Assembly: GCA_964495875.1 (NCBI GenBank) | Contig: CAZBWB010000002.1 | Coordinates: 24,363-88,362, forward strand | Source of the DNA: Candidatus Woesearchaeota archaeon | Lineage (GTDB): Archaea > Nanobdellota > Nanobdellia > Pacearchaeales > GW2011-AR1 | Reading direction: 5' to 3' | DNA: 64,000 nucleotides | Shown: piece after piece, positions 14,059 through 48,941 of the stretch | How positions within the stretch are numbered: the stretch's first letter is position 1 | How the letters are laid out: every line of letters starts with the position of its first letter | Program-made: the position numbers and the translations under genes | The notes under the pieces: generated by a model | What the model saw: only the letters and a program-made list of their open reading frames with translations | What the model was told of the DNA's origin: nothing | The model's database searches: none

Positions 14059-14064
14059 TTCTTT

Positions 14065-14886
14065 ATGGTAAAAAAAGATTTTGCAATAGTATATTTGGTT
14101 GCAGGAATTTCAAGCAGATTTGGAGGAAAGATTAAGCAATTTGCTAAAGTAGGTCCGAATGGAGAAACTTTAATAGAATATTCTTTAACACAATCTATTC
14201 CAGCTGGTTTTTCCAAGATAATCTTTGTTGTCGGAAATAAAACTGAACAGCCTTTCAAAGAAAAATTTGGGAACAGTTATAATACAATACCGATTTATTA
14301 TGCATTACAATCATATGATGAAAAAGCAAGAGACAGACCTTGGGGAACTGCAGATACATTATATTCTGCAAAACATTTACTGGATTGCCCGTTTGTTGTA
14401 TGCAACGGAGACGACCTTTATGGAGCAGAGACATTCAAAATTTTAATAAATCATCTTAAAAATAATGATTCAGGAGCAAGCATAGGATATAGATTAAGTA
14501 AAGTTATTCCTGAAAAAGGAACGACTAATAGGGGTATTTTTAAAAAAGATTCAGACAATAATGTAAAAGAGATTAAAGAAATATTTGATATAACAAAAGA
14601 TAATCTTTGGGAAAAAGGATTAAAAGAAGATGACCTATGCAGTATGAATATTTTTGCTTTGCATCCAGAAACAGTTAAATTATTAGAACCTGTGATAGAA
14701 TCATTTAAGGAAAAACACAAACATGACAGAAGAATAGAGTGTCTCATTCCTGAAGAAATTTCAAATTTAATAAAAGCAGGGAAATTGAATATGAAACTTT
14801 ATGACACACCGGAATCTTGGGTAGGAATTACAAATCCCGAAGATGAAGAGATTGTTCGGGAGAGGCTTTCTGAAACTTCCAATTAG
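14065..14886 (+). CDS. sugar-phosphate nucleotidyltransferase
   Basis: N-terminal VYLVAGISSRFGG (LxxGxGxR-type NTP-transferase loop); ORF start trimmed because 14026..14064 overlaps the tRNA. Confidence 0.7.
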   Translation: MVKKDFAIVYLVAGISSRFGGKIKQFAKVGPNGETLIEYSLTQSIPAGFSKIIFVVGNKTEQPFKEKFGNSYNTIPIYYALQSYDEKARDRPWGTADTLYSAKHLLDCPFVVCNGDDLYGAETFKILINHLKNNDSGASIGYRLSKVIPEKGTTNRGIFKKDSDNNVKEIKEIFDITKDNLWEKGLKEDDLCSMNIFALHPETVKLLEPVIESFKEKHKHDRRIECLIPEEISNLIKAGKLNMKLYDTPESWVGITNPEDEEIVRERLSETSN

Positions 14887-32698: not shown

Positions 32699-35179
32699 TT
32701 ACGCTACCACGAGTGACGCGCTTGTTGAAGATGTTCCCTTGTATTTCTTGCCAGCTGTTGTATCAACAGTCTGAGTTCTCAAATAAGTAACAGCATTTAC
32801 TGTATCATCAGCGCTGTAACCAGCAACCAATAATGCAATCTTTCCTGTTGTGTAAGCATCACCAAAGCTCTGTATCAAGAATTCTCCTGAACCAACACCT
32901 GTCGCAGCTGTCCAGTCTGCAGTACATTTAGCACCGCCAACCAAAGTAGCAGCAGCTGAATTAATACAGCTTCCACCAACCACAACCAGGTTCTTTGAGC
33001 TTACAGAACTAACTTCGCTGTCCTTTACAAGAACTTCTCCCAGTATACCAGTTCCACCTTCCATTACAGAAGTTTCTTCTGTAAGGAATACTTCTGCATA
33101 AGTTTCTGAATCATCAGTACCAGGATAATACACTTCAGCCCAATCTTCATCTGGTGCTGTATAATGCAATATTCTTGGAGCACACTCATCTCTAATATAT
33201 GTTTCATATATATTTGTATCTCCTTGTTCTTCACCATTTGGTCCTCCTGTTCCTGCATTATCTACTTCACTTACATACACCTTATTATCAGTATTATCAT
33301 TTAGGGTAAGATTAAACATTGTACCTGTACCGAGATTTTCATCCTTGTCTTCACCAACCATAAAAAGTGCAACTTCTGACCAACCATGGCCCTTAAAAGT
33401 AGTGTTGCCTGGTGAACCCACAAAGCTAACTGCTCCAAGGGTAGTATGATTAGCACTTTTATTAGTCATTGCCTGACCATAAACCCCAGTAAAATTGTTA
33501 TCATATGGCAGAAATACCATTAATCCTCCGGGTGTAAGTGCAGTATGAAAGTTAACATCTTTATTATCGCTGGGAATTCCAGCTGTGATATTAACTGATT
33601 CATCTCCTCCAGAGGTATAATTAATAAAACCAATAGTTAGGGATACATCTCCAATACTACAAGTATCTGTTTGTTTCTTTTCTGTACAAACATCTACCCA
33701 AGAACTTCCATCATATTTTTGGATGGTAGTTTCATTTCTACCAGCAGTTGTATCTTGTGAAACTTTCGCTCTTAGCAAATAAGATTCACCCTCTTTACTG
33801 GTATTATAAGTTGCAACAAAATAAGAATGCCAGTCACTTCCTCCTCTTTTTTCATAGAATACCAAGTCACTATAATTTGTTGTTGCTAATTTCTCATCAG
33901 TGGCTTTTCCAATTCCAATAAATTCTCCGGATGAATTAGAGTACAATATATTAAAACTAACTGTGCCGTCTTTCAAAGGCATAGTCAATTCAATACTTGT
34001 ATCACTATCTTTTTCAACAGTTATTTTCTCTTCTGCAGCTCTCACAAGTTCATTCATTGAGAATTTAACTGCTCCAAATCCAGGCATTGTAAGTTCTGAT
34101 TGAGGAGATAAAAAAGATTCTTCGTCTGTTTTCCATTGTATGGTAATCTTATCAAGTTTACCTGATGATTTCCACAGATGGCCTTTTATTCCAGTGATTG
34201 TATCATCATTTAATTTTATATCCTGTCCATGGTTTAGTTCAAGTTTACCAGTTCCAATACTAAATGATGCACCACCTACTTCACCAGAAACTGCTAACTT
34301 GGTTACATCTCTAACACCAAGGTAAGAACCATCATCTAACTTGTACGAATTTCCTTTAACAAGTTTTCCACTTGCAGGAACTCTTTCTCCGTCAACCATG
34401 AATACTACTTCATCCTCATCAATCCATTCAATAGTCACTGACTTACCTGAAACAGTTGCTGTTTCACCTTCTTTAACATTCCCAATAGCTGCAGAGTCTA
34501 ATAAAATAGTTTTCCCAAAATAACTATTGGATGACCCATTTGCCATTTCTGAAACATAATAGGTTTTTCCCATTAACGGAAAATCACTGCCTTCAATATC
34601 CTCCATTCTAAGATTAGCGTCTACATCACTTGTAACATCACTAAGGAAATCAATGGTATAGTTTAAGATATATGTGTTTGAAGATATTTTAAATCCTATC
34701 ACTGGCGTTCTCGTACTTAATCCAACAAGACTTTCATAATCAGAATCTCTGAAATGTGTTAATTCTGGAGTACCAAGAGAAATGGTTTGTTCATAATTAA
34801 ACTCATCATTATCACCTGCAATATATGTTCCATCTGCAAGCAATGTAGATAAATCCTCATCATCTACAGTTCCAACAAATGTACCCCAAGTATTGTTGAT
34901 ATTGAGATTATCACTACCTTCTGCAAGCAAAACATTATCTCCGCTCGGAGTTCCACCAGTAGTTCCTAAAGAAGATGCTAAGTTATCTTCAATGAATCCT
35001 GCCTGAACCAAATCTGAAGGATCTACTCCAGCTCCAGTTCCGTAAACAATTGCTACATTTGCAGTGCTTCCAACAACAAAAGGTGATGGATAATTTGCAG
35101 CAGCAGCAACGCCAGCAGTCATACCGATCATCAATGCACTCACAGCTATTGCAGAAATTTTCTTAAAAATATTTTTCAT
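32699..35179 (-). CDS. S-layer protein (Methanococcales-type N- and C-terminal domains)
   Basis: Sec signal. N-terminus NYPSPFVVGSTANVAIVYGTGAGVDPSDLVQAG. C-terminus NLVVVGGSCINSAAATL...KIALLVAGYSADDTVNAVTYL. Strong AGGAGGT upstream. Confidence 0.75.
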   Translation of the reverse strand: MKNIFKKISAIAVSALMIGMTAGVAAAANYPSPFVVGSTANVAIVYGTGAGVDPSDLVQAGFIEDNLASSLGTTGGTPSGDNVLLAEGSDNLNINNTWGTFVGTVDDEDLSTLLADGTYIAGDNDEFNYEQTISLGTPELTHFRDSDYESLVGLSTRTPVIGFKISSNTYILNYTIDFLSDVTSDVDANLRMEDIEGSDFPLMGKTYYVSEMANGSSNSYFGKTILLDSAAIGNVKEGETATVSGKSVTIEWIDEDEVVFMVDGERVPASGKLVKGNSYKLDDGSYLGVRDVTKLAVSGEVGGASFSIGTGKLELNHGQDIKLNDDTITGIKGHLWKSSGKLDKITIQWKTDEESFLSPQSELTMPGFGAVKFSMNELVRAAEEKITVEKDSDTSIELTMPLKDGTVSFNILYSNSSGEFIGIGKATDEKLATTNYSDLVFYEKRGGSDWHSYFVATYNTSKEGESYLLRAKVSQDTTAGRNETTIQKYDGSSWVDVCTEKKQTDTCSIGDVSLTIGFINYTSGGDESVNITAGIPSDNKDVNFHTALTPGGLMVFLPYDNNFTGVYGQAMTNKSANHTTLGAVSFVGSPGNTTFKGHGWSEVALFMVGEDKDENLGTGTMFNLTLNDNTDNKVYVSEVDNAGTGGPNGEEQGDTNIYETYIRDECAPRILHYTAPDEDWAEVYYPGTDDSETYAEVFLTEETSVMEGGTGILGEVLVKDSEVSSVSSKNLVVVGGSCINSAAATLVGGAKCTADWTAATGVGSGEFLIQSFGDAYTTGKIALLVAGYSADDTVNAVTYLRTQTVDTTAGKKYKGTSSTSASLVVA

Positions 35180-35589: not shown

Positions 35590-35931
35590 ATGGCAATAAG
35601 AGAAATCACAATAAAAGGAGAGAAAGAAGCATTTTCTATTTTCAAAAAAGGGTCTTCTGGTAAAAAATATGATTTTTCGGGTATTTTAGCTTTGAGACAG
35701 CTATTAAGCAACGAAAAAGCAAGGATTTTACATGTGATAAAAACAAGAAAACCCCAGTCTATTTATGATTTAGCTAAAAAATTAAACAGAGGTTTTAAGG
35801 CTGTAAATGATGATGTCAAATTACTGGAAAGATTTGGTTTTATAGAATTAATAGAAGAAAAAACAAAAAACCGGACGAGATACAGACCTGAAATTGTAGT
35901 AGATACAATCACGATTAATGTAAAAATTTAA
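35590..35931 (+). CDS. winged-helix (MarR/ArsR-like) transcription regulator
   Basis: ARILHVIKTRKPQSIYDLAKKLNRGFKAVNDDVKLLERFGFIEL helix-turn-helix plus wing. Confidence 0.6.
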   Translation: MAIREITIKGEKEAFSIFKKGSSGKKYDFSGILALRQLLSNEKARILHVIKTRKPQSIYDLAKKLNRGFKAVNDDVKLLERFGFIELIEEKTKNRTRYRPEIVVDTITINVKI

Positions 35932-36512
35932 TAATACACATTAAAGGATATTTCATAATCTTCATTGCTTCTTGTAAAATCCTGGGCAGCCCCCTTGTAA
36001 TTCTGTGTTATGTTGCCTTTATTAACCAACAGAAGTTCCTCTCCTTCTAAACTAATTCTCAAGGCATAGCCTTTTATTGGAGTATCCTCTCCTACATTCC
36101 AGCTATTCTCACAGATTTCCTTTAAAGTAATTTCCATTGTTTCACAGGCACTTCTGCCATCTAGGCACATTTCATCATCTCCGCAACTAAAAATCAGATT
36201 TTGCACAGATAAAAAGCCTGTGGAATCTTCACAATCAGTCGTATATTGCAAAAATGACTGGATAAATCCTTCAACTTCATAACTTTCAATTTCCATCTTA
36301 GAACTTCTCAGGGAAAAACTAAGGAAAAAAAGCAATATAACAGATACTATGATTATTATCAATACAAACCCAACCATTTCCTCTTGCGAGCGTTTGCCCG
36401 AGACAAGATGGTCAAAATAATCCCGAGTGTGAACGGGAGTAGAGCGTTTTGACCTTGGACAAATTTTTTGTATTAATCCCAATGTTAAGGCGCGAGTTTT
36501 TTTATTTTTCAT
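35928..36512 (-). CDS. pilin-like protein 5 (194 aa), long basic N-terminus
   Basis: ...GKRS|QEEMVGFVLIIIIVSVILLFFL then a Cys-containing ectodomain; ATGA overlap with the upstream gene. Confidence 0.45.
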   Translation of the reverse strand: MKNKKTRALTLGLIQKICPRSKRSTPVHTRDYFDHLVSGKRSQEEMVGFVLIIIIVSVILLFFLSFSLRSSKMEIESYEVEGFIQSFLQYTTDCEDSTGFLSVQNLIFSCGDDEMCLDGRSACETMEITLKEICENSWNVGEDTPIKGYALRISLEGEELLLVNKGNITQNYKGAAQDFTRSNEDYEISFNVYY

Positions 36513-37048
36513 GTTTTATCCTCAGAACTTACCATCAATCTTGCAAGTTCACATTTACCATAAACTCCTGTGTCTGAACTTTCTTTCCAGCATAATGCAA
36601 CAAAATTTGATGAAGCAGGCAATTTATTTACATTTTTTGAATAAACTTCAATAACTCCGCAATCAGGAAAATTTCCCGAATTACATACGATATTCCCTTC
36701 ATCCGGGTAGATTTTTCTTATCTTTATTTCAGCAATTCCCCAAAAGCCAACATATTTTGATATATGCTCTTTTAAAATCATGATTTTGTCAGCATCAATA
36801 CAATTCAACTTGCTGCTTCCAAAAGAATCTCCGCAAGCAAACTCAGGCGAATTAGCAAGTTTTGCAACAAGTAGCATAGAGTTCTCTTCTTCAAGAATAT
36901 TTGCACTTTGTTTTAGATTGGAAAATCTTATTACTAATACAAATATTCCAACAAATATAAAAAAAAGCGTAACTGCTATTAGCATAAATGCCATTTGCTG
37001 AACCTTCAGTTGTCCTTTGTTATGTGATTTTCTTTTTTTTATTACCAT
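36509..37048 (-). CDS. type IV pilin-like protein 4 (class III signal peptide)
   Basis: MVIKKRKSHNKG|QLKVQQMAFMLIAVTLFFIFVGIFVLVI. Confidence 0.55.
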   Translation of the reverse strand: MVIKKRKSHNKGQLKVQQMAFMLIAVTLFFIFVGIFVLVIRFSNLKQSANILEEENSMLLVAKLANSPEFACGDSFGSSKLNCIDADKIMILKEHISKYVGFWGIAEIKIRKIYPDEGNIVCNSGNFPDCGVIEVYSKNVNKLPASSNFVALCWKESSDTGVYGKCELARLMVSSEDKT

Positions 37049-37965
37049 AATCCACATCTGCTTTCCATTTCATTTTTATAATCAAGATTTTCAATTTTTT
37101 CCTCTAACAAAAGAACATCCTTTGAATCATCAAAATCTTCTGCGAGTTCAGATAATTCTGTTAAATAACTATCAATATCAGATTCACAACCTTTCTCTCT
37201 AATTAATAATGCTTTATCTCTATATATCAGAGAGAGTTCTTCTATTCTTTGCATCAATCTTTTTAACTGACATTCATAAACATCAACATCTCCAAAAATC
37301 CCAGCATACATTAGTGCATCAGACACAAAATACATTTTTTTCCCTTGTTTTTTGACATATCCATAATCATAATTCACACTAATATCACAATTTCCTGAAA
37401 AGCATACATTAATCATATCATCAGAGCAACCTCCTGTTAAAAGATTCTCTTGATTTAATTTTTCGATTTCATATTCAATTTCCTCCGGAGCATTAACAAA
37501 ACAATAAATGTCTTTGGAAGAAGTCATGTAAATTAAATCAGCAACCTTGAACGGAAAATCAAATGGCTTTGAAAAAATATAAAATGTTTGTCCTTCAATA
37601 ATTTCTTTTGAAAAGATATACTTGTTTGAAAAACCCACATCGGTATTTGTCTCTGTCCATGTATTAAAACTTTTTTGCGAAACTTTAATCAGTTGTTTGC
37701 CGAAGTTTCCTGCATTATTACAGCTGTTGTAAATTCTTGATTCTGCCGGTATTGTGAATGATGTTGTTTTTGCTGATTCAAAACCAGTCTCCAAAGGATT
37801 AAGCAGAATCCCGATTTCTTTTCCTGTTTTGGCATCAATCGTTGTTCGTTCTGTTTTCATAAGTTTTGTCACTCCGTAAATCGCAAGAAAAATTATAAAG
37901 ATTCCTACAATAATCGCAAAAAGCCATCCGAAAGATATTTGTAAAGCACCTCTTTTCTTTTTCAT
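37042..37965 (-). CDS. type IV pilin-like protein 3 (class III signal peptide), 307 aa
   Basis: MKKKRG|ALQISFGWLFAIIVGIFIIFLAIYGV; ORF opens at 38016. Confidence 0.55.
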   Translation of the reverse strand: MKKKRGALQISFGWLFAIIVGIFIIFLAIYGVTKLMKTERTTIDAKTGKEIGILLNPLETGFESAKTTSFTIPAESRIYNSCNNAGNFGKQLIKVSQKSFNTWTETNTDVGFSNKYIFSKEIIEGQTFYIFSKPFDFPFKVADLIYMTSSKDIYCFVNAPEEIEYEIEKLNQENLLTGGCSDDMINVCFSGNCDISVNYDYGYVKKQGKKMYFVSDALMYAGIFGDVDVYECQLKRLMQRIEELSLIYRDKALLIREKGCESDIDSYLTELSELAEDFDDSKDVLLLEEKIENLDYKNEMESRCGLW

Positions 37966-37981: not shown

Positions 37982-38410
37982 TTACGAACGGGTAATTGTA
38001 ACCAAAGATTCCCCATATTCTTTTATAACTATCATTCTTATCTTACCCCCAATATTATCTATGCAATAAGGATTTTCTGAGGATGTAATTTTTCCAATAT
38101 CGATATGTTCAATTTTTCCCCTGTCAACTATTTTTTCTGAATCAAACATTAAATTCTGAGATTCATCAATGAAGCAAACCGCATTTATGCTGTTTGGAAG
38201 AGAATATTCTTTTGTCTGACTTCCCTGCTGACTCTGCCACATTTGATTCACGTCTGCCTGCAGATTATCCATGAAAAGTTTAACCTGTATTGTTTTTTGC
38301 ATGTCGATAAATTTTATTATTGCATAAACAGCGACAGAAAGAAAAATAATTATAAGAAAAATGGAAAAAATCATTCCAAAGGATAATTTCAGCTGCCCCT
38401 TTTTTTTCAT
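37982..38410 (-). CDS. type IV pilin-like protein 2 (class III signal peptide), 142 aa
   Basis: MKKKG|QLKLSFGMIFSIFLIIIFLSVAVYAI; Q at +1 as in EppA-type archaeal pilins. Confidence 0.6.
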   Translation of the reverse strand: MKKKGQLKLSFGMIFSIFLIIIFLSVAVYAIIKFIDMQKTIQVKLFMDNLQADVNQMWQSQQGSQTKEYSLPNSINAVCFIDESQNLMFDSEKIVDRGKIEHIDIGKITSSENPYCIDNIGGKIRMIVIKEYGESLVTITRS

Positions 38411-38443: not shown

Positions 38444-40585
38444 TCAATATTCAAAAAATTCAAAAGGACGTAAAATTATATTGCATTTATTTTGTGCAGG
38501 CTTATTTCCATATTCATCCTGGCATTTTATGTATAAGTTATTGCTAGTATCCCATGCCACAGAATGAACTATGTCATCACCGCTTATCATGCTAAGCCCG
38601 TCTTCAAAATTATAAGAACATGAGGTAATATCATAAACACACTCTGCCGGCTCACTTGTTATTATTTTCAAATCCCCCCCTTCATAATATGCTCTTGTAA
38701 TTAAAGGTGTGGTAAAATCTGCTTCTACTTCAAGCTCTGTTGTGGCAGTTGCTACATTTCCGGCCATATCAAAACACTGTATATGATAAGTATAATCTCC
38801 TTCTGAAAGATAAAGTTCATCAGAGTGCTCATAAGAACGTGTATTTTTAAATTCAGTATAATCGTTGTAGTTTCCAGTACTGCTGTAATAACAATCTGCT
38901 ATTCCATTTTCATATCCTGCTGATGTTCTTGCTTGCAGTTTGATCTTGACAATATTACTTGAGCCTTTGATAATTCCGCTTGGCTCTACTGAATCAATCA
39001 CCAGAGCACGGGAACCGATTAAAGTTAATTCTTTGGATTCAGTATTCATGTTTCCTGCTGAATCACTGCACCTGAAATAAAATTTATTTTCTTCCTCATT
39101 TTGAAGTCCTGTCAATGTTCCAGAACATGAGTAGCTTATCTGGGCATTAAATGTGGTAAATTCACTTATTTTATCACCACACGATATCATCATTTCTTCC
39201 ATCTCTTCATAGGATTTATCGCTGTGGCTCCATCTGCATCCTCCATTCTCACTTAACAAAGGTTCATTGACATAAATTCTTACATTTGTTTCATGGGCTT
39301 CTGTTTCGCCGAAATATCTTATAGGTGTGTTATCTAAAAGATTAAATCCCTGAATCAGAGGTGGTGAAATATCTGGAAGAGGGTCAATGCAGAATTTAAA
39401 TAAAAATTCTCCTACATTAGCATAACCATTGACATTCTCACATCTCACATAATATTCATAATTTCCTCCTGACGGAAGTTCAATTCCTTCATTTTCAAGA
39501 TTTGCCTGTCCAGGGAAAAACATAAGTTGAGTATGGTTTCTGTCCCACAAACCGCTTCCAAAAGAAAGTTGCATATCATCAAAACTTGATGTTCTGTGGT
39601 CTTCTATCCTGCATGTTCCTTCTTTGTCTAATTCAATTCCAAAAGTAAAAGATTCAAAAGAAGGCAGACAACCGCCTTTGTATTTTACTTCAACTCCGTT
39701 TGTTGCTGGTATTGGCTCATAGGAATAATCACCAGACAACAAAGAATCCTCTCTTGGTGTTATCTTAGGAGAAGTCGTGTCTGTCGGACTTACATAAATA
39801 CATCTCGCATTATCTCCTTCATTTATCAGTTCACATGCCTGCCCCAGACTTTTACACTTGTATAATGTGCATGGAAATTCTCCTCCGTTGCATTTGTTAC
39901 AATCAGCTCCTCCTGTCTGCGATTGCCATGTCTTACAGTCAAATACCACTGCTCTTTGGTCTGTTCTCAAAGTCATCCTCCAGAAAGTGATTAATGCTGT
40001 TAGTATTCCAATCGGCCATCCCACTACCAATGTAGCTAAATTTGCACCCAATCCAATTCCTGTTGCAATTCCTGCTGCGAGATTTCCTACAGTAAAACCC
40101 AAACCAATAGAAGCTCCTATAGCATTTGCCCAAAAAAGGGCTTCGTCAACATCATGCCCTCCAGCCCACCATACTGCTGCAAAAGTTATCACCCAAGCAA
40201 CACCAGCCCAAAGCAATCCACTTTTCATTATATCAAACTTAATATTTACTTTTCCCAAAAGCTTAATAATTTCTTTTCCCAATTTTTCGCCCACAAAATA
40301 TGCTACTGAATGACCAGCTTCTACTTCCCCTACTGTTGCTAATACCCCTCCCCCTCCTGCTTTTGCCATTATTGCACCTGTTATAGAAGCCTTTGTATTT
40401 TCTTCTGATTCCTGGTCGGATTCATTGGATTTTATTATTGCTTTTCTTATAACATTAGTTGATAACGGAGAACTCGATGTCTGTGCAGAAATAATGTTTG
40501 TAAATGCTACGATGCTTGTGATTAAAATAAAAATCTGAATTAACGCAATAGATTTTTTTTCTCTTTTTCCATTATTCTTTTTCAT
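38444..40585 (-). CDS. 713-aa envelope protein: signal peptide, Gly-rich hydrophobic helices, Cys knot, four or more beta-sandwich repeats
   Basis: MKKNNGKREKKSIALIQIFILITSIVAFTNIISA signal. WAGVAWVITFAAVWWAGG / GASIGLGFTVGNLAAGIATGIGLGANLATLVVGW helices. Repeats YEYYVRCENVNG, FYFRCSDSAGN, YTYHIQCFDMAGN, LYIKCQDEYGN. Confidence 0.6.
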   Translation of the reverse strand: MKKNNGKREKKSIALIQIFILITSIVAFTNIISAQTSSSPLSTNVIRKAIIKSNESDQESEENTKASITGAIMAKAGGGGVLATVGEVEAGHSVAYFVGEKLGKEIIKLLGKVNIKFDIMKSGLLWAGVAWVITFAAVWWAGGHDVDEALFWANAIGASIGLGFTVGNLAAGIATGIGLGANLATLVVGWPIGILTALITFWRMTLRTDQRAVVFDCKTWQSQTGGADCNKCNGGEFPCTLYKCKSLGQACELINEGDNARCIYVSPTDTTSPKITPREDSLLSGDYSYEPIPATNGVEVKYKGGCLPSFESFTFGIELDKEGTCRIEDHRTSSFDDMQLSFGSGLWDRNHTQLMFFPGQANLENEGIELPSGGNYEYYVRCENVNGYANVGEFLFKFCIDPLPDISPPLIQGFNLLDNTPIRYFGETEAHETNVRIYVNEPLLSENGGCRWSHSDKSYEEMEEMMISCGDKISEFTTFNAQISYSCSGTLTGLQNEEENKFYFRCSDSAGNMNTESKELTLIGSRALVIDSVEPSGIIKGSSNIVKIKLQARTSAGYENGIADCYYSSTGNYNDYTEFKNTRSYEHSDELYLSEGDYTYHIQCFDMAGNVATATTELEVEADFTTPLITRAYYEGGDLKIITSEPAECVYDITSCSYNFEDGLSMISGDDIVHSVAWDTSNNLYIKCQDEYGNKPAQNKCNIILRPFEFFEY

Positions 40586-40586
40586 T

Positions 40587-42338
40587 TTATTTATGACTCT
40601 CTGCTTCTGGGATATTTGCTTTAGAGACATTTTCTCCCACAAATAATTCCTTCCATGAGTAATAGCTATTTTGCTGGATATAATTTGATTTTACTCCGCA
40701 ATCTCCTAAGACAATACATAATTCTTCCTGGTTTCCTGCCCATTCTGATTTTAAATCAACAGTGCCTACCCCTAATTCTCCGCTGGCACCCTTATCCATA
40801 AAAGATTCAGATTCAGGACATTTTCTGGCACAAAGTGCACGACAATCTCTAAGAACCGCTGTGCAATTATCCAAACATTCTGCATAGCATTTGCCTTCAA
40901 TAGCCTCCCATCCGCTCGTTACACTTTTAAAATATCCTGCAACAGAACTTGCACTTCCAACACTGCATACTTGTGAAGGAGATATCTGTGACTCAACTCC
41001 AAGTATTGCAGCATCTGGCTCCCAAAAATTAAACCCAGGAGGATATTTAGGAACACACATAGCTTTTATAGATTTAATAGACTCATTTATTAATTCTCCT
41101 GCTGAATTGTAATTAGAGGTATAATTTGAAAATAATATATCATCTCCGTTTTCATCTTTTCTGGTTACTCCCATCTCAATTTTGCAATCTCTTTGGTCTG
41201 TATCCAAGCATACTTTTGAACTATTTTGGAACACGCAGTCCTGCCATCTGTTCATAAAACAATTTGCTTCTCCAGGAACATCTTCTTTGCACAATTTTTC
41301 TCTTAAATTTCCGCATAATTCCCATTGAACCTCTCCATCATAGCAATAAAGTCTATAAGATAAATCTCCTGGTTTTGCATCTTCAAAAGAGATTATTGGT
41401 TCAGAACACCACGCACTGCCATGCGCTTTTATTTCTCCATTATAATTGCAACTTAAGTCTCCGCAGATATAATTTCCAGAATCAACGCTTTCTCCTGCTC
41501 TTTTTTCTCTGCACGTGCTTCCTAAAAGATAATTGCAGTTTCCGCAATTAGGTGAATCTGCATTTGAATTTCCATAACCACAAATCTCACTTGAAGCAGG
41601 GTCTTTTATGTAAGTCCAATAAGGAACATCATCTTCTAATCCAGAATTATAAACATTTGCAGGGTTTCCGCAGTTATCAACAAAAAAAACCTCGTTTCTC
41701 CCCTCAACACAGGTTGTTCTTTTAGTCATGGTGCATATTGTTCCTAATTCAGGAGCACTACACAACAGTCCTGCATGGAATTCTTTTCCTTCTGAATTGC
41801 ATTTTTCTCTTGTTTCAATAGTGCATTTTTTCCCTTCATCTGTCTGAAAAACACAAGCACCTTTTGCAGCAGGTCCTGCACTCAGCAAACATTCTTCCTG
41901 AGTTGTTATACTGTCGTCAAAATTTGGCTGAACTCCTATGTCTGCTGATACTTTATTGCAGGTTGTTCTCCGTATAAAAGAAGCACCTTCTCCAATAAAA
42001 CAACAGCCATACTGGCATTCAGCAATTTCTTCAGCATCTTTGTCATACCAATATCCTCCGAGATTAGGATTGCATGCTGTTGATGAAGAAGCCATACATG
42101 TTCCTTGTGCATTATTTACACAAGTGCCTGTTGAGCAATACTGGGTTGATTCACATGCAGTGTCATCTATTCTATAATTTTGATTGCAATACTGGCTATT
42201 CCCAACATCTAAACAAATCCCTCCGTTTATCGTCATCTCACAACAAATAGCACTTACAATATTTAATGAAAATATTATAAATATCCCTAATAAAATTCCT
42301 TTCAAAAATATTTTTTTAAATTCTCTTTTTTTAATCAT
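40587..42338 (-). CDS. 583-aa secreted cysteine-rich protein (~45 Cys)
   Basis: MIKKREFKKIFLKGILLGIFIIFSLNIVSA signal, then Cys every ~12 residues to the C-terminus; no family recognised. Confidence 0.6.
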   Translation of the reverse strand: MIKKREFKKIFLKGILLGIFIIFSLNIVSAICCEMTINGGICLDVGNSQYCNQNYRIDDTACESTQYCSTGTCVNNAQGTCMASSSTACNPNLGGYWYDKDAEEIAECQYGCCFIGEGASFIRRTTCNKVSADIGVQPNFDDSITTQEECLLSAGPAAKGACVFQTDEGKKCTIETREKCNSEGKEFHAGLLCSAPELGTICTMTKRTTCVEGRNEVFFVDNCGNPANVYNSGLEDDVPYWTYIKDPASSEICGYGNSNADSPNCGNCNYLLGSTCREKRAGESVDSGNYICGDLSCNYNGEIKAHGSAWCSEPIISFEDAKPGDLSYRLYCYDGEVQWELCGNLREKLCKEDVPGEANCFMNRWQDCVFQNSSKVCLDTDQRDCKIEMGVTRKDENGDDILFSNYTSNYNSAGELINESIKSIKAMCVPKYPPGFNFWEPDAAILGVESQISPSQVCSVGSASSVAGYFKSVTSGWEAIEGKCYAECLDNCTAVLRDCRALCARKCPESESFMDKGASGELGVGTVDLKSEWAGNQEELCIVLGDCGVKSNYIQQNSYYSWKELFVGENVSKANIPEAESHK

Positions 42339-42339
42339 T

Positions 42340-43098
42340 TTAACAATATCCGCTCGGTGAAAACACGAGACTTCTTGAAGCGAATTCAAATTTATTTCCT
42401 TTTTCTCTGTTTGTTATGATGTAAATTTTTGTATCGTCGCTTAAGAATTTTTTATCAATCTTAATATCAGGATAAAAATCCATGTAAATTGTTACATCAG
42501 TGTCTCCATAAGTCGCTTCCCATTCTAGTATACTGTTTGTAACTGCAATCAATTCATAAAGATTATTGTCAAGCACAACACTGAAAGAATCATATTTCTC
42601 TGTTTCTCCTTTTGTCAGTGTCAAGGAATAATCAAATGTAGAGACAATTCTGTCTGGAAGCAATTCTACATTCACAGGACCTTTTTTTAAATCCACACCA
42701 TATCCTTTTTTTTCATAATTTTCTTTTAAAGAATCAAAACAATCCTGGACTTCATCCTCAATTTCATTTTTTATTTCCTGTTCAATGTGTGGCTTTAATT
42801 GTGGTTCTTGAATAGAACAAAGTGCACAATATTGTGCAGTATAGCATAAATTTTTTATGTTTATATTATCAAAAGTGCTGAAGAATGCAGGTTCAAAATC
42901 TCCTCCCTGCAAAGAAATTTTTTCCACGACATCTTCAATCTCTTTTTCAGTGCATGCCTGAATGAATTCCGGAGGATTTTTCACACCTTTGCCAACTGCT
43001 GATTTTATCTGTGGAAAAAACATATATATCAAAATACCAAGCACAAAAATAACTATAGCAATTATGATAAAAATTGTAACCTGCCCCTTTTTTTCCAT
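42340..43098 (-). CDS. type IV pilin-like protein 1 (class III signal peptide), 252 aa
   Basis: MEKKG|QVTIFIIIAIVIFVLGILIYMF; first gene of the operon. Confidence 0.55.
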   Translation of the reverse strand: MEKKGQVTIFIIIAIVIFVLGILIYMFFPQIKSAVGKGVKNPPEFIQACTEKEIEDVVEKISLQGGDFEPAFFSTFDNINIKNLCYTAQYCALCSIQEPQLKPHIEQEIKNEIEDEVQDCFDSLKENYEKKGYGVDLKKGPVNVELLPDRIVSTFDYSLTLTKGETEKYDSFSVVLDNNLYELIAVTNSILEWEATYGDTDVTIYMDFYPDIKIDKKFLSDDTKIYIITNREKGNKFEFASRSLVFSPSGYC

Positions 43099-43119
43099 AT
43101 CTGATTTACGATATCTTTA

Positions 43120-43127
43120 TTTATAAA
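43120..43127 (-). promoter_or_regulatory. TATA box (TTTATAAA) of the pilin-like operon, leaderless spacing
   Basis: Centre 25.5 nt upstream of ATG 43098. Confidence 0.6.
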
Positions 43128-45885: not shown

Positions 45886-47139
45886 ATGTCAGATTTTAAA
45901 GAGAAAAGAGTGAGGAGTTTAACTCAGCTGTATTATTCTAAACCAGAAGTGCAAAAAGTAATTTTTGAATTTTCAAAGAACAGGGAAATCTGTCCGAGAT
46001 ATTTTGAAGGATTTGGAAAGCGTCCTGATTCTCTGCAATATCTCAGTGATTTTTTTGAATTAGTAAAAAAAGGAGCAACGTCTTTTCATTGTTCAGAGGA
46101 AATCTGGCAAGAACCATTAAATCTTTCAACAGATATGGATGAGAAAAAATTGAATGAATTAAGAATAGGGTGGGATTTGTTGCTTGATATTGACAGCAAA
46201 TATTTGGATTATAGCAAGATAATGGCAAAGATAATCATAGAAATGCTGAAATTTTGCGGAATAAAAAATATCGGTGTCAAGTTTTCAGGAAGCAAAGGAT
46301 TTCATTTAATTATTCCTTGGAAAGCATTTCCAAAAGATGTTAATGGTGTAAAAACTTCAGACATGTTTCCAGAATGGCCGAGAATAATTACAAATTATAT
46401 TACACATATGATGAAGGAAAAATTAATTGAGCAGATTAGTGAGTTGTCAAAGCCGAACAGATATGTAAGAGATTTTCAGGCTCCGAAAGAAGTAATGCCT
46501 GATTTAATTTTAGTATCTCCTCGTCATTTATTCCGGATGCCGTATTCTTTGCATGAAAAAACAGCTCTTGCGAGTGTTGTCATCAAGCCAAGTGAAATTG
46601 AAGATTTTCAGCCAAAAGATGCAGACCCTTTGAAAGTTAAGATAAAAAATTTTCTGCCTGATTCACAGGAAAATGAAGCCCGTGAACTTTTGCTGCAGGC
46701 ACTCGATTGGCATAGAGAAAATAATCCAAAAAAAGAAGAAGAAACAAAAAGAGAATTCAAGCCGATTAAAATTTCAAATTTATCTGAACAAAATTTCCCG
46801 CCATGTCTTAAAAAAATTCTGCAGGGACTTGGGGATGGAAAAAAAAGAGCCTTGTTTGTTCTGATTAACTTATTTCGTTCAGTTGGCATGGAAAAAGATG
46901 AAATTGAAAAAAGAATTGAAGAATGGAACAAGAAAAATAAACCTCCTCTAAGGAAGGGATATATACAATCCCAATTGTCCTGGAGTTTTAAAAGAAAACC
47001 AATCATGCCTCCAAACTGCAAAGAATTCTACAAGGGAATCGGAATATGCATTCCAGATGAACTCTGTAAATTAATAAAAAATCCAGTTAATTATGTGACG
47101 AAGAGGAGTTTTATAACAAATTTTAAAAACAATAATTGA
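45886..47139 (+). CDS. priS: DNA primase, PriS catalytic domain fused to a PriL-type Fe-S C-terminal domain
   Basis: PriS motifs WDLLLDIDSK, SGSKGFHLIIP, RMPYSLHEK. C-terminal FPPCLKKIL...PPNCKEF...GICIPDELC (four Cys) resembles PriL-CTD. Confidence 0.8.
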   Translation: MSDFKEKRVRSLTQLYYSKPEVQKVIFEFSKNREICPRYFEGFGKRPDSLQYLSDFFELVKKGATSFHCSEEIWQEPLNLSTDMDEKKLNELRIGWDLLLDIDSKYLDYSKIMAKIIIEMLKFCGIKNIGVKFSGSKGFHLIIPWKAFPKDVNGVKTSDMFPEWPRIITNYITHMMKEKLIEQISELSKPNRYVRDFQAPKEVMPDLILVSPRHLFRMPYSLHEKTALASVVIKPSEIEDFQPKDADPLKVKIKNFLPDSQENEARELLLQALDWHRENNPKKEEETKREFKPIKISNLSEQNFPPCLKKILQGLGDGKKRALFVLINLFRSVGMEKDEIEKRIEEWNKKNKPPLRKGYIQSQLSWSFKRKPIMPPNCKEFYKGIGICIPDELCKLIKNPVNYVTKRSFITNFKNNN

Positions 47140-47150
47140 GTTATAATGCA

Positions 47151-48941
47151 ATGAAAAAGGTGCTGATTATATCTCTGGTACTTATAATCTTTTGTGCGTA
47201 TTTTGTTATTGCTGCAAATGAAACTGTTTCTGAAAAAGGTTATTCCTGCCTGGAAAATAAGGTTGCAGGCAAATGCTCTTCTCTTTCTTCTGAAGAAAAA
47301 ATATTTTCCCTGCTTGCAATAGACAGATGCAAGACAGAAGTACTTGCTGATTCAAAAAACAAACAATGCTGGCCTGCTTCAAATTGTAAATTAAAAACAA
47401 CTGCTCAGGCAATTCTTGCTCTTAATTCTGTAAATGCAGAAACTACTGAAGCAGAGAATTGGTTACTGTCACAGACAACTTCTCCTTCAGATGTTGACTG
47501 GCTTTTGCAAATAGAAGCAGAACCGACTTCATGCTCTGTTTCTTATTTAGGCAGGTCTTATCCGATTTCAATTAATTCAGACAGGAAAATAAGCGGCAGT
47601 CCTGGAAGCTGTTTGAGAATTTATGAGAATTACTGGTTAAAAATTTCTCCTGTTTGCTATAGTGAAGAATTTGAAATTTCTTGTGACCAAACTTTTTTCA
47701 CAAATTTATTATACAAAAAGAGAGATTCAGAAATAATTTATGTTTTAAAAGGCACAAATTCTGCTTCAGGAGGAGGTGTAACAAAGGAGAAAGTAAGTTC
47801 TGTTTGCTTTAAACAAGGAGCATCATGCAATTATGAGGGAAGCTTATGGGCAGCCTATGTCTTGAACATTAAGGGGTATGACGTTTCTGCTTACCTGCCT
47901 TATTTAATAAGTATGAAAGATGAAAATTCAGAATTTCTTCCAGAATCTTTCTTATACTCTTTAACAAGTGATTTTAGAGATGAACTTTTATCTAAACAAA
48001 AAGAAAACTGGTGGTTGGAATCAAGCGATAAGTTTTATGATACAGCAGTGGCTCTTTTATCTTTGCAAAAAGAAGAACCCCAGGAAAAAACAAATGCAAA
48101 AGAATGGCTCGAAGAAGTTCAGGGAGATAACGGATGCTGGCAGAATAGTATAAGGGATACTGCATTCATTTTGTTTTGTGCATGGCCCAAAAAAATAGTC
48201 ACTCCATCTGAAACAAAACCAGATTGTGAAGATTCAGGATATTATTGTATGACTAGCACTGCCTGTCAAAAAGTAGGAGATGTTTTAACAAATTATTCTG
48301 GCTGTTTTGGAGTAAATGTTTGCTGTAGTTCAAAAAGTTTATCAGAAAGTTGCTTGACTCAGGACGGAGAAATCTGCACTTCAAATGAAATATGCAAAGG
48401 AGGAAGTTTCGTTGATGCCACTGACACTGAAAGGTGCTGTATGGGGGGAGACTGCACAAAAATAGAGGAAGAGGAAGAAGAGGAGGAAGAGGAAGAAGAA
48501 GGAAAATCAGAATGTGAAATATATGGCGGAACATGCAAATCATCCTGCTCAGAAAATGAGGAATTACGTTCATATGATTGTCCTTCTTTTGATGTCTGCT
48601 GTTTCAGCAAAGCTAAGAAAGGATATACAGGAGTTATTATTTTGGCAATTCTTATTGTTTTGACTATTCTTGGAATTATATTCAGGAAAAAACTGAGAAA
48701 ATTCCTTTTTAATCTTAAATCTAAACTAAAAGGAAAATTCAAAGGAAAATTTTTCCCAGGTTTAAGAAAAGGTCCAAAAAGAAGATTCCCTCCAGGTCCG
48801 TCTGCATTAATTAGACCAAGAACCAGACCAAGAACTATCCTGCCTCCAAGCCAGAGACCTGCAAGAAAACCTGCTCCTGTAAGAAGACCCAAAAGTGAAT
48901 TGGATGAAGTTCTTAAGAAATTAAAAGAGATGGGGAAATAA
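47151..48941 (+). CDS. surface protein: alpha/alpha-toroid-like repeats, three Cys modules, poly-Glu, TM, Pro/Arg-rich cytoplasmic tail
   Basis: Signal MKKVLIISLVLIIFCAYFVIA. Repeats KLKTTAQAILAL / FYDTAVALLSL / IRDTAFILFCAW. 12xE run. TM VIILAILIVLTILGIIF. Tail PPGPSALIRPRTRPRTILPPSQRPARKPAP. Confidence 0.65.
   Translation: MKKVLIISLVLIIFCAYFVIAANETVSEKGYSCLENKVAGKCSSLSSEEKIFSLLAIDRCKTEVLADSKNKQCWPASNCKLKTTAQAILALNSVNAETTEAENWLLSQTTSPSDVDWLLQIEAEPTSCSVSYLGRSYPISINSDRKISGSPGSCLRIYENYWLKISPVCYSEEFEISCDQTFFTNLLYKKRDSEIIYVLKGTNSASGGGVTKEKVSSVCFKQGASCNYEGSLWAAYVLNIKGYDVSAYLPYLISMKDENSEFLPESFLYSLTSDFRDELLSKQKENWWLESSDKFYDTAVALLSLQKEEPQEKTNAKEWLEEVQGDNGCWQNSIRDTAFILFCAWPKKIVTPSETKPDCEDSGYYCMTSTACQKVGDVLTNYSGCFGVNVCCSSKSLSESCLTQDGEICTSNEICKGGSFVDATDTERCCMGGDCTKIEEEEEEEEEEEEGKSECEIYGGTCKSSCSENEELRSYDCPSFDVCCFSKAKKGYTGVIILAILIVLTILGIIFRKKLRKFLFNLKSKLKGKFKGKFFPGLRKGPKRRFPPGPSALIRPRTRPRTILPPSQRPARKPAPVRRPKSELDEVLKKLKEMGK
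48465..48500 (+). repeat. (GAR)12 purine tract encoding a 12-residue poly-Glu linker
   Basis: gaggaagaggaagaagaggaggaagaggaagaagaa, in frame in 47151..48941. Confidence 0.85.

What the first reader, a model, noticed from the sequence alone, without database searches (positions are those of the whole stretch)
40587..42338. 583-aa secreted protein with about 45 cysteines in the middle of the pilin-like operon
After a Sec-type signal (..IFSLNIVSA|ICCE) the protein carries about 45 Cys by my manual count, roughly 8% of residues, spread evenly to the C-terminus. It has CC doublets (ICCE, QYGCC) and many CxxC-like spacings (CGNC, CYAEC..DNC). There is no TM anchor and I recognise no domain. A disulfide-dense or metal-binding extracellular giant encoded next to pilin-like genes fits an adhesin or tip protein. 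It would need an oxidising or otherwise Cys-stabilising extracellular chemistry, which is unusual for an archaeal surface protein.
Basis: seen in the sequence. Interest (0 to 1): 0.6.

Follow-up and report, generated by a model that had tools for sequence, protein, structure and literature searches.

The report
Disulfide-packed surface protein of nano-archaea
This gene encodes a secreted protein held together by about 22 disulfide bonds; it belongs to an undescribed family found in hundreds of tiny symbiotic (DPANN) archaea and is probably bonded to a neighbouring stalk protein within a conserved pilin-like surface apparatus next to the S-layer gene.

Summary
The ORF lies on the minus strand at 40587-42338 and encodes 583 aa with 45 Cys (7.7%, against about 1% in the window's cytoplasmic proteins). 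It has a Sec-type signal (VSA|I) and no other hydrophobic segment.

The gene is real and conserved. About 1,720 50%-identity clusters match it, and 522 species genomes of Woesearchaeota, Pacearchaeota and Nanoarchaeia encode a relative. Of the 45 Cys columns, 28 are invariant in 117 homologues, and the variable Cys come and go in pairs. This points to disulfides rather than metal sites.

The family has no Pfam, NCBIfam, PDB or BFVD match. The AlphaFold model is confident (pLDDT 89.5).

The gene always sits in one fixed cluster: PCNA, pilin-like 252, this gene, a 713-aa Ig-stalk protein, four more class-III-signal pilin-like genes, an HTH regulator and the S-layer gene.

Both this protein and the Ig-stalk protein carry an odd number of Cys. 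Paralogues fuse the two into one chain. C541 here and C217 of the partner are kept together in 112 pairs, lost together in 4 and never lost singly, which predicts an interchain disulfide.

Function is inferred only. The best reading is the exposed head of a type-IV-filament-like surface complex, analogous to PilY1 but not homologous to it. I rate it a new variant of a known kind.

The parts
40587..42338 (-). w583: the Cys-rich secreted protein (583 aa, 45 Cys). It founds an undescribed family.
   Evidence: ORF and Cys count. Homologues: 180,720 representative clusters. No Pfam, NCBIfam or PDB sequence match. AF2 pLDDT 89.5. No fold match in PDB or BFVD.
42249..42338 (-). Predicted Sec-type signal peptide of w583, aa 1-30, with cleavage at VSA|I.
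   Evidence: Read from the sequence: basic n-region, hydrophobic core and a V-S-A motif. 'VSA' is conserved in the family consensus. Hydropathy, coordinates. Not tested with SignalP.
40716..40718 (-). Codon of w583 Cys541 (..ELC541IVLGDC547G..), the predicted interchain disulfide partner of w732 Cys217.
   Evidence: Over 116 w583/w732 pairs, both Cys are present in 112, both absent in 4 and discordant in 0. Coordinates.
38444..40585 (-). w732 (713 aa from the ATG at 40585; the ORF lister gives 732 aa from a TTG at 40642). It has a signal or anchor helix, a disordered linker, four hydrophobic helices, a 7-Cys module and 4-5 Ig/FN3-like domains. It is the predicted covalent partner of w583.
   Evidence: AF2 pLDDT 76.9. 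Foldseek matches Ig/FN3 strings at E 1e-13 to 1e-9. All 21 Cys are at least 94% conserved. Fused to the w583 domain in paralogues. The start codon lies 1 nt after the w583 stop.
39935..39937 (-). Codon of w732 Cys217 (..VVFDC217KTW..), the predicted interchain disulfide partner of w583 Cys541.
   Evidence: The residue lies in a segment (207-225) that AF2 leaves at pLDDT below 50 in the monomer.
42340..43098 (-). w252: pilin-like protein, first gene of the operon. Class III signal ..KKG|QVTIFIIIAI..
   Evidence: The motif is conserved in 74 orthologues. Synteny.
37982..38410 (-). w142: pilin-like protein. Class III signal ..KKG|QLKLSFGMIFSI..
   Evidence: The motif is conserved in 45 orthologues.
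37042..37965 (-). w324: the largest pilin-like protein (307 aa from the internal ATG; the ORF extends to 38016). Class III signal ..KRG|ALQISFGWLFAIIVG.. The C-terminal C-x-L-W is invariant.
   Evidence: Used as the independent anchor for the co-occurrence test.
36509..37057 (-). w182: pilin-like protein. Class III signal ..NKG|QLKVQQMAFMLIAVTLFF..
   Evidence: The motif is conserved in 46 orthologues.
35928..36512 (-). w194: pilin-like protein, last gene of the operon. Class III signal ..KRS|QEEMVGFVLIIII.. The leader is unusually long in this window.
   Evidence: The motif is conserved in 43 orthologues. Codon listing.
43118..43127 (-). TATA-like element TTTATAAATA, 19 nt upstream of the w252 ATG, within the 226-nt gap after PCNA. 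Candidate operon promoter.
   Evidence: Read from the sequence. This is inference only; no transcript data exist, because only DNA runs hold this sequence.
35590..35931 (+). HTH regulator (weak Lrs14/Phr-like NCBIfam matches on the window protein; its orthologues in L001 and L003 hit Pfam HVO_A0114), convergent with the operon and syntenic in nearly all loci.
   Evidence: Pfam HVO_A0114 on the orthologues in L001 and L003. Weak NCBIfam hits below cutoff. Median 71% identity across loci, as conserved as PCNA.
32699..35179 (-). S-layer protein (S_layer_C) with a signal peptide. I saw no TM anchor when reading its C-terminus in the translation; no hydropathy scan was run on it. Always the next gene after the regulator.
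   Evidence: Pfam PF05124, 26.6 bits against a cutoff of 23.9. Synteny.

Best explanation
w583 is an extracellular structural protein with a new fold, exported by the Sec pathway. About 22 intrachain disulfides hold the fold rigid. A 23rd Cys, C541, bonds it covalently to C217 of the protein encoded immediately downstream (w732).

w732 is a string of Ig/FN3-like domains preceded by hydrophobic helices. Together the two proteins form one two-chain module. In paralogues the same module is a single chain.

This module is made from one tightly packed operon with five class-III-signal (type IV pilin-like) proteins. I infer that it is mounted on, or primed by, a short pilin-like assembly at the cell surface beside or through the S-layer. 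I also infer that w583 is the exposed, faster-evolving head that makes contact with whatever the cell attaches to. By analogy this is the role PilY1/PilC plays with the minor pilins in bacteria.

Shown here:
- conservation of the family and its fixed synteny;
- the pairwise Cys logic;
- the fusion paralogues;
- the interchain Cys covariation;
- the class III signal motifs.

Inferred:
- that disulfides actually form;
- the surface location of the complex;
- assembly as a filament or stub;
- the adhesive role.
For: 1. Disulfide scaffold.
- 28 Cys columns are invariant in 117 homologues of 30-71% identity. Cys conservation is 0.91 against 0.35 for other residues.
- Variable Cys appear and disappear in pairs: 210/276 and 342/360 with phi 1.0, 253/265 with 0.98, 499/503 with 0.97 and 33/51 with 0.90.
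- The AF2 model is confident without any cofactor (pLDDT 89.5).
- The only weak fold resemblances are to disulfide-rich modules: FnI, VWF TIL and TNFR-CRD.

2. Partnership with w732.
- The genes are 1 nt apart and adjacent in every locus.
- Thirty representative proteins and 57 locus ORFs fuse both domains in one chain.
- Cys counts are odd in 180 of 217 w583-type proteins and in 31 of 34 w732-type proteins.
- w583 C541 and w732 C217 are both present in 112 pairs and both lost in 4 (L007, L008, L087 and an L058 paralogue). They are never lost singly.
- The two split pairs with even+even Cys counts are exactly L007 and L087, two of the co-loss cases.
- The C217 segment is unstructured in the monomer model.

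3. Pilin context.
- Five neighbours carry [KR][GAS]|Q class III signals. Each family has its own conserved hydrophobic helix, seen across 43-74 orthologues.
- The operon is tightly packed, with gaps or overlaps of no more than 35 nt.

4. Exposed head.
- w583 is the fastest-diverging of the seven operon proteins: median 36% identity against 46-53% for the pilin-like ones.
- The w583+w732 module is duplicated as 1-2 extra fused paralogues in about 40 of the 132 loci surveyed.
- w732 resembles Ig/FN3 adhesion stalks.

5. Precedent.
- Archaeal type IV pilus loci with a large signal-peptide 'adhesin or minor pilin', S-layer-like Ig proteins and multi-Cys components are described in PMC4858521 and in bioRxiv 10.64898/2026.04.22.720090.
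- PilY1/PilC with minor pilins is described in PMC13533445.
Against: - No assembly ATPase, platform protein (FlaJ/TadC) or prepilin peptidase lies in the 64-kb window, or within 10 kb of the gene in the two relatives whose neighbours were annotated, L001 and L003.
- One paper states that type IV pilus components are missing from DPANN genomes (bioRxiv 10.1101/2020.05.14.094862). Others report FlaIJK-type systems in DPANN (PMC8561730).
- The pilin-like proteins match no Pfam pilin family, and their folds were not modelled.
- w583 has no similarity to PilY1 or to any known adhesin.
Disulfide formation in a sediment (probably anoxic) organism is therefore assumed, and no thiol oxidase was found in the window.
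- The cluster's near-universal presence and its fixed position beside PCNA, primase and the S-layer gene fit a housekeeping envelope role at least as well as host adhesion.
- The Cys covariation rests on four loss events and has no phylogenetic correction.
Confidence: 0.5

Rival explanations
1. S-layer anchoring or S-layer-penetration complex. The S-layer protein next door appears to have no membrane anchor. The w732 Ig-stalk with its hydrophobic helices, capped by w583, would tether the lattice to the membrane (SlaB-like) or form a collar where something crosses it. The pilin-like proteins would be structural membrane stubs. w583 would then be a housekeeping envelope part and not an adhesin.
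For: - The S-layer gene (S_layer_C) follows the operon in nearly all loci with enough flank.
- As read, the S-layer protein ends without a hydrophobic segment; no hydropathy scan was run on it.
- The cluster is present in 522 species genomes at a fixed place beside PCNA and primase, as expected for an essential envelope function.
- Foldseek hits for w732 include an S-layer protein, Deinococcus HPI.
- The 2026 census of archaeal type IV filament systems proposes that Ig-fold S-layer-like proteins in such loci prime or remodel the S-layer.
Against: - The S-layer gene is a separate transcription unit, lying behind an oppositely oriented regulator gene.
- Five proteins with canonical class III signals are the hallmark of type IV filament systems, not of known S-layer anchors.
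- In many fused paralogues the linker has no predicted TM helix, so the module is not itself a membrane anchor.
- The head evolves faster than the pilin-like core, and the module is duplicated in about 40 of the 132 loci surveyed. This is unusual for a stoichiometric lattice anchor.
Confidence: 0.22
2. Host-membrane-engaging device of an ectosymbiont. The hydrophobic, Gly/Ala-rich helices lie in the loop closed by the C541-C217 bond. They would act as a latent membrane-insertion element carried on a rigid disulfide-locked head, used to breach or bridge the host envelope. The pilin-like proteins would provide the push or the mount.
For: - The segment between C541 and C217 holds Gly/Ala-rich helices of borderline hydrophobicity (KD 1.65-2.0). 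Their number varies from 0 to 2 among fused paralogues.
- Pacearchaeota are reported to be unusually strongly host-attached.
- Cultivated DPANN are ectosymbionts requiring direct cell contact with a host (abstracts listed).
- The fold is new.
Against: - No resemblance to fusexins, viral fusion proteins or pore-formers appeared in Foldseek.
- The hydrophobic segment is absent from many paralogues, so it is not a defining part.
- In the split form, the helices may simply be the membrane anchor of w732.
- There are no experimental data on any organism carrying this operon.
Confidence: 0.1
3. Metal- or Fe-S-binding extracellular protein (redox, electron transfer or metal sequestration), with the Cys acting as ligands rather than forming disulfides.
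For: - The Cys density is high, with some C-x2-C and C-x3-C spacings.
- The organism comes from a sediment metagenome, where disulfides are harder to maintain.
Against: - Variable Cys are gained and lost strictly in pairs. This is the signature of disulfide partners, not of 3-4-ligand metal sites.
- There are no CxxCxxCxxxC motifs.
- Only 3 His are present.
- The signal reads as Sec-type (no SignalP or Tat predictor was run), whereas cofactor-loaded exported proteins normally use Tat (general knowledge).
- AF2 folds the protein confidently without ligands.
- The C-x3-C triplets lie on two helices predicted by AF2 (H482-491 and H496-506), which could pair as a hairpin (my reading).
Confidence: 0.04

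Closest known systems
PilY1 / PilC tip adhesins with minor pilins (bacterial type IV pili)
   Same: Both are large non-pilin proteins with a Sec signal, encoded inside an operon of 4-5 pilin-like genes. PilY1/PilC are proposed to sit on a minor-pilin complex and present an adhesive head (PMC13533445). The variable head with a conserved pilin core is also shared.
   Different: There is no sequence or fold similarity: no Pfam hit and no beta-propeller match in Foldseek. w583 is Cys-rich with a new fold. It is predicted to be disulfide-linked to a second, Ig-stalk protein. The system is archaeal, with class III signals of the [KR]G|Q type. No assembly ATPase or platform gene lies nearby.
Predicted adhesin / S-layer-like accessory proteins of archaeal type IV pilus loci (Makarova, Koonin & Albers 2016, PMC4858521; archaeal TFF census, bioRxiv 10.64898/2026.04.22.720090)
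   Same: These loci combine several small pilin-like proteins, one large signal-peptide protein called 'adhesin or minor pilin' and an Ig-fold S-layer-like protein. In Thermoproteales almost all components carry multiple conserved Cys expected to form disulfides.
   Different: Those loci include the ATPase and TadC/FlaJ genes and belong to Thermoproteales or Euryarchaeota. The present cluster has no machinery genes and is restricted (as far as was seen) to Woesearchaeota, Pacearchaeota and Nanoarchaeia. Its large protein is far more Cys-dense (7.7%). Homology to those arCOGs could not be tested, because no arCOG library was available.
Eukaryote-type disulfide-rich extracellular modules (fibronectin type I, VWF TIL/D', TNFR cysteine-rich domains)
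   Same: Short beta-hairpin elements are pinned by closely spaced disulfides. These are the only, very weak, Foldseek resemblances (E 0.1-1, covering 50-140 residues).
   Different: None reaches significance. w583 has no internal repeats, so it is not an array of such modules but one continuous architecture of about 550 residues.
SlaB-type S-layer stalk proteins of Sulfolobales
   Same: w732 (not w583) shares the general plan of a Sec signal, beta-sandwich domains and membrane association. It is also encoded next to an S-layer gene that appears to lack an anchor.
   Different: This comparison rests on my own knowledge of SlaB; no SlaB match was found or specifically tested. SlaB has a C-terminal TM helix and a coiled coil, no Cys-rich cap and no associated pilin-like genes.

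Membership tests
Type IV pilins / class III signal peptide proteins | Short basic leader ending in G/A/S at -1, followed by about 20 hydrophobic residues (the prepilin peptidase site) | tested here: not met
   w583 has a classical tripartite signal with a VSA|I site and no [KR]G|Q motif. Its five neighbours do meet this feature. w583 is therefore not a pilin.
Type IV filament system (the operon as a whole) | [quoted passage not shown] | tested here: met
   Five families each carry a conserved [KR][GAS]|Q motif plus a hydrophobic helix, across 43-74 orthologues.
Type IV filament system (the operon as a whole) | Assembly ATPase (FlaI/PilB type), platform protein (FlaJ/TadC) and class III signal peptidase encoded in the genome | not testable with these tools
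   None lies in the 64-kb window, or within 10 kb of the gene in the two relatives whose neighbours were annotated, L001 and L003. The rest of the genome could not be read. The literature disagrees for DPANN.
Type IV filament system (the operon as a whole) | Pilin fold (N-terminal helix plus beta-sheet head) of the pilin-like proteins | not tested
There is no Pfam pilin hit.
PilY1/PilC adhesins | C-terminal PilY1/PilC beta-propeller domain (Pfam Neisseria_PilC) | tested here: not met
   No Pfam hit at E <= 1 for w583 itself and none at E <= 0.01 for 25 family members. The top Foldseek PDB matches (E >= 0.1) are disulfide-rich modules, not PilY1/PilC.
PilY1/PilC adhesins | Sec-exported non-pilin protein encoded among minor pilin genes | tested here: met
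Fe-S / ferredoxin-like or metallothionein-like metal binders | Cys ligand clusters (such as CxxCxxCxxxC) that are conserved as sets and not as pairs | tested here: not met
   No such motif is present. Variable Cys covary strictly in twos. No Pfam match.
Fusexins / class II fusion proteins (Fsx1, HAP2) | Three-domain beta-rich class II fusogen fold | tested here: not met
   No Foldseek match with E < 0.09 in PDB or BFVD.
Archaeal S-layer proteins (S_layer_N / S_layer_C) | Pfam S-layer domains | tested here: not met
   w583 has none. The true S-layer gene of the locus is 32699-35179.
EGF / TNFR-CRD / FnI / TIL repeat proteins | Tandem array of a recognisable Cys-rich repeat | tested here: not met
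   No internal repeat is seen by segment-against-segment hhalign (all probabilities below 4%). Foldseek E >= 0.1.

The most novel reading that the evidence does not exclude
The disulfide-locked w583-w732 module, mounted on five dedicated pilin-like proteins, is the long-sought host-contact organelle of Woesearchaeota and Pacearchaeota. The Gly/Ala-rich hydrophobic helices in the loop closed by the C541-C217 bond insert into the host membrane. Extracellular oxidative folding in these anaerobe-associated archaea would then require an undiscovered disulfide-forming pathway.
Probability: 0.1. Interest if true: 0.9.

Novelty: new variant of a known kind. Interest (0 to 1): 0.62.

Why it matters
Woesearchaeota and Pacearchaeota are among the most widespread uncultured archaea and are thought to live attached to other cells. 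To my knowledge no attachment structure or envelope machinery has been assigned to genes in them.

This work defines a seven-gene surface module that is conserved, syntenic and nearly universal in the sampled genomes. Its most striking part is a protein of about 550 residues with a new fold and about 22 disulfides. A specific, testable interchain bond is predicted (C541-C217).

The finding offers three things:
- concrete targets for antibodies, cryo-ET labelling and heterologous expression;
- a marker gene family for the clade;
- an open question about how organisms from sediment and groundwater form and keep dozens of extracellular disulfides, given that no Dsb- or VKOR-like gene lies in the 64 kb examined.

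If the module turns out to be an S-layer anchor rather than an adhesin, that would still be new for this group.

Tried and rejected
Searches that found nothing:
- Pfam on w583 and on 25 family members. The only hit was a spurious, weak CoV_NSP4_N match in 6 members.
- NCBIfam.
- PDB sequence search with the single sequence and with the profile. The only hit was a chance NSP4 match at E 1.4.
- Foldseek of the confident model against PDB and BFVD. Nothing scored below E 0.09.
- Pfam on ten orthologues of the pilin-like proteins.
- A search for RNA-seq runs holding the locus. Only three DNA runs from one sediment study were found, so there is no expression evidence.
- Literature searches for a described DPANN Cys-rich pilin-operon protein. 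None was found.

Ideas tested and rejected:
- Internal repeats. hhalign of eight segments against each other gave nothing.
- Homology of w583 to the Cys module of w732 or to the second Cys-rich protein w601. Not significant.
- Using the even Cys count of the fused proteins as independent proof of an interchain bond. It is only the sum of two odd counts, so I replaced it with the residue-level co-loss test.
- My first pairing of w583 and w732 ORFs. It mixed in fused paralogues and alignment gaps, so I redid it with adjacent-ORF pairing and motif checks.
- Fe-S or metal binding, fusexin, S-layer protein and pilin identity for w583 (see the membership tests).

Technical limits:
- The A2 alignment was too large for a Pfam scan (error).
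- Model coordinates are not exposed, so the disulfide map could not be read from the AF2 model.
Full report
**1. The observation**

The ORF is on the minus strand at 40587-42338. It starts at ATG and encodes 583 aa. I counted 45 Cys, or 7.7%, from residue 32 to residue 547. A longer TTG start at 42389 would overlap the upstream gene. The ATG lies 1 nt after the upstream gene's stop codon.

The N-terminus has a basic stretch, a hydrophobic core and V-S-A|I. 'VSA' is kept in the family consensus. A hydropathy scan finds no other hydrophobic segment.

Across 76 ORFs of the window, proteins without a hydrophobic N-terminus average 0.97% Cys and those with one average 2.4%. This ORF is the top outlier.

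The window is a low-GC (about 32%) archaeal chromosome. It carries PCNA, primase, class I LysRS, P0/L10, aIF5A, FtsZ and SepF. The same sequence occurs only in DNA runs of a sediment metagenome.

**2. A real, conserved and undescribed family**

A word-indexed search returned 180 full-length homologues of 30-69% identity, all labelled 'hypothetical'. A profile search of 1.84 billion cluster representatives found 1,720 with E <= 1e-3 and 982 with E <= 1e-30. One peptide pattern found relatives in 522 species-level genomes. Nearly all are titled Woesearchaeota, Pacearchaeota, Nanoarchaeota or Nanoarchaeia.

No library or structure search gave a match:
- Pfam on the protein and on 25 members;
- NCBIfam;
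- PDB sequence and profile searches.

AlphaFold2 run with 114 homologues gave a confident model (mean pLDDT 89.5, pTM 0.63). It is made of many short beta-hairpins and a few helices. Foldseek found nothing below E 0.09 in PDB or BFVD. The best, non-significant, local resemblances are to disulfide-rich modules: FnI, VWF TIL and TNFR-CRD. There are no internal repeats.

**3. The cysteines behave as disulfide partners**

In 117 full-length homologues, 28 of the 45 Cys columns are 100% conserved. Mean conservation is 0.91 for Cys and 0.35 for other residues.

The Cys that vary do so in pairs:

| Pair | Both present | Both absent | phi |
|---|---|---|---|
| 210/276 | 104 | 13 | 1.0 |
| 342/360 | 107 | 10 | 1.0 |
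| 253/265 | 82 | 34 | 0.98 |
| 499/503 | 51 | 64 | 0.97 |
| 33/51 | 64 | 47 | 0.90 |

This pattern fits disulfides and argues against multi-ligand metal sites.

**4. The gene neighbourhood is fixed**

In distant relatives (33-36% identity) the called genes follow the same order. This order was read from L001 and L003:
- a ~420-aa protein and a ~600-aa protein, both on the opposite strand;
- primase, on the opposite strand;
- PCNA;
- a ~260-aa protein;
- the Cys-rich protein of ~580 aa;
- a protein of 800-1,000 aa;
- proteins of ~150, ~312, ~180 and ~167 aa;
- an HTH regulator, on the opposite strand;
- the S-layer protein.

tblastn over 80 genome loci reproduces this order wherever enough flank exists.

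Five of the operon proteins have canonical archaeal class III signals. Each family has its own conserved helix across 43-74 orthologues:
- ..KG|QVTIFIIIAI
- ..[GAS]|QMKLSFGMIFSI
- ..G|xLQISFxWLFAIIVG
- ..[GA]|QMKIQQMAFMLIAVTLFF
- ..[GAS]|QEEMVGFALIIII

The seven genes are separated by gaps or overlaps of no more than 35 nt. A TATA-like TTTATAAATA lies 19 nt before the first ATG.

All 26 loci with at least 6.5 kb upstream carry w583 in place. In 25 of them it is one uninterrupted match covering over 85% of the protein.

**5. The partner protein**

The downstream gene starts 1 nt after the w583 stop and encodes 713 aa from the ATG at 40585. Its model (pLDDT 76.9) has these parts:
- a signal or anchor helix;
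- a disordered stretch;
- four hydrophobic helices (residues 94-205);
- a small 7-Cys module (residues 215-265);
- four to five beta-sandwich domains.

The beta-sandwich domains match Ig/FN3 strings in PDB at E 1e-13 to 1e-9. Hits include PTP-delta, KIT, the GhpA grappling hook and an S-layer protein. All 21 of its Cys are at least 94% conserved.

About one in five of the best family representatives are proteins of 1,100-1,450 aa. They carry the w583 domain, a variable linker and the w732 part in one chain. These fused forms are paralogues. They sit between PCNA and the first pilin-like gene in about 40 of the 132 loci surveyed, next to the split pair. The window's lineage has only the split pair. 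The number of predicted TM helices in the fused linker ranges from 0 to 2.

**6. A predicted interchain disulfide**

w583-type proteins have an odd Cys count in 180 of 217 cases. w732-type proteins have an odd count in 31 of 34. The even total of the fused proteins is only the sum of two odd numbers, so I did not use it as evidence.

Instead I paired adjacent ORFs and fused chains into 115 non-redundant pairs and looked for cross-protein co-loss. One pair of columns stands out: w583 C541 (..LC541xxLGDC547G..) and w732 C217 (..FxC217xxW..).
- After checking apparent single losses, which were all alignment gaps, and adding L008, the table over 116 pairs is 112 with both Cys, 4 with neither and 0 discordant.
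- The four losses carry different substitutions: S/N, A/S, T/P and A/A.
- Their nearest relatives keep both Cys, so the losses look independent.
- The only two split pairs with even+even Cys counts are two of these cases.
- C217 lies in a segment that AF2 leaves unstructured in the monomer.

For the window's proteins this predicts 22 intrachain bonds in w583, 10 in w732 and one between them.

**7. Mechanism**

The best-supported reading is that w583 is the rigid, disulfide-locked and exposed part of a two-chain (elsewhere one-chain) module. Its other part is an Ig-domain stalk. The module is co-made with five pilin-like proteins that anchor or prime it at the surface.

Three observations favour an exposed contact role:
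- w583 diverges fastest among the seven proteins (median 36% identity against 46-53% for the pilin-like proteins, 65% for primase and 72% for PCNA), while its Cys scaffold stays fixed.
- The module is duplicated in about 40 of the 132 loci surveyed.
- The stalk resembles adhesion-molecule ectodomains.

The closest functional analogue is PilY1/PilC on a minor-pilin initiation complex (PMC13533445). The closest published precedent is the set of predicted archaeal type IV pilus loci with a large signal-peptide 'adhesin or minor pilin', Ig-fold S-layer-like proteins and multi-Cys components (PMC4858521; bioRxiv 10.64898/2026.04.22.720090). Membership in the PilY1 family fails, because there is no propeller and no sequence match. 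The resemblance is functional only.

**8. Caveats and rivals**

- No assembly ATPase, platform protein or prepilin peptidase lies in the window, or within 10 kb of the gene in the two annotated relatives L001 and L003.
- Papers disagree on whether DPANN have type IV pilus machinery.
- The cluster's near-universality and its fixed place beside the S-layer gene make an S-layer anchoring or S-layer-crossing role a serious rival (confidence 0.22).
- A host-membrane-engaging role for the hydrophobic loop is not excluded (0.1).
- Metal binding is unlikely (0.04).
- No thiol oxidase was seen in the window, so how these disulfides form in a sediment organism is open.
- I could not extract the disulfide map, because model coordinates are not exposed.

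**9. Verdict**

The protein founds an undescribed, widespread family with a new fold, so I rate it a new variant of a known kind: a non-pilin accessory or adhesin-like subunit of a type-IV-filament-like locus. It comes with a specific, testable prediction of a covalent partner.

Noticed in passing
window 47136-48941 (+) and 49201-50514 (+): There is a second Cys-rich secreted protein (601 aa, 5.3% Cys). It has a 12-residue poly-Glu run, three short Cys-rich repeats ending in CC-x3-C, a C-terminal TM helix and a basic Pro-rich tail. A 437-aa secreted protein with one such repeat and a TM anchor follows it. The pair is conserved divergently beside primase in most related loci. Neither protein has a family match, and the 601-aa protein shows no homology to w583.
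   Followed up: partly
L058 1479-9080, L022, L049, L060, L079 and about 35 other loci: Many relatives carry one or two extra fused paralogues (1,100-1,400 aa, Cys-rich domain plus Ig-stalk in one chain). They lie between PCNA and the first pilin-like gene, in addition to the split pair. The window's lineage lacks them.
   Followed up: partly
window 35590-35931 (+): A small HTH regulator is convergent with the operon and lies between it and the S-layer gene. The window protein has weak Lrs14/Phr-like NCBIfam matches below cutoff; its orthologues in L001 and L003 hit Pfam HVO_A0114. It is as conserved as PCNA across loci (median 71% identity). It is a candidate regulator of the surface cluster.
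   Followed up: no
window 35928-36512 (-): The last pilin-like protein has an unusually long leader here: about 42 aa before the KRS|QEEM site. It contains what looks like a duplicated ..RSKRS.. motif. Orthologues have leaders of 8-15 aa, and no alternative start codon lies closer.
   Followed up: partly
window 32699-35179 (-): The S-layer protein (S_layer_C) has a signal peptide. I saw no hydrophobic C-terminal anchor when reading its sequence, and no hydropathy scan was run on it. It is the most divergent gene of the neighbourhood: only about 18% of its length aligns across relatives.
   Followed up: partly
L008 (DATJPO010000002.1), L013 (JAHYJW010000002.1), L017 (JANBVJ010000020.1), L069, L077: Contigs carrying this archaeal synteny (PCNA followed by the operon) are deposited under the bacterial labels Omnitrophota and Patescibacteria, or under the DPANN labels Aenigmatarchaeota and Iainarchaeum. 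These are probably binning or labelling errors.
   Followed up: no
window 37042-37965 (-): The largest pilin-like protein ends in an invariant C-x-L-W at its very C-terminus. It also has the strongly conserved motifs FSKPFEFPFK and ALMYAAIF, and 8 conserved Cys. It is a candidate docking subunit for the head module.
   Followed up: no
window 27878-29560 (+): Another secreted 560-aa protein has a borderline CARDB-like domain (22.4 bits against a cutoff of 22.7). The window holds several unannotated surface proteins.
   Followed up: no
window 13979-14058 (+) and 14026-14886 (+): The only tRNA in the window (tRNA-Ser, anticodon TGA) overlaps the TTG-started 5' end of the nucleotidyl-transferase ORF as listed. 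The true start of that gene is probably further downstream.
   Followed up: no
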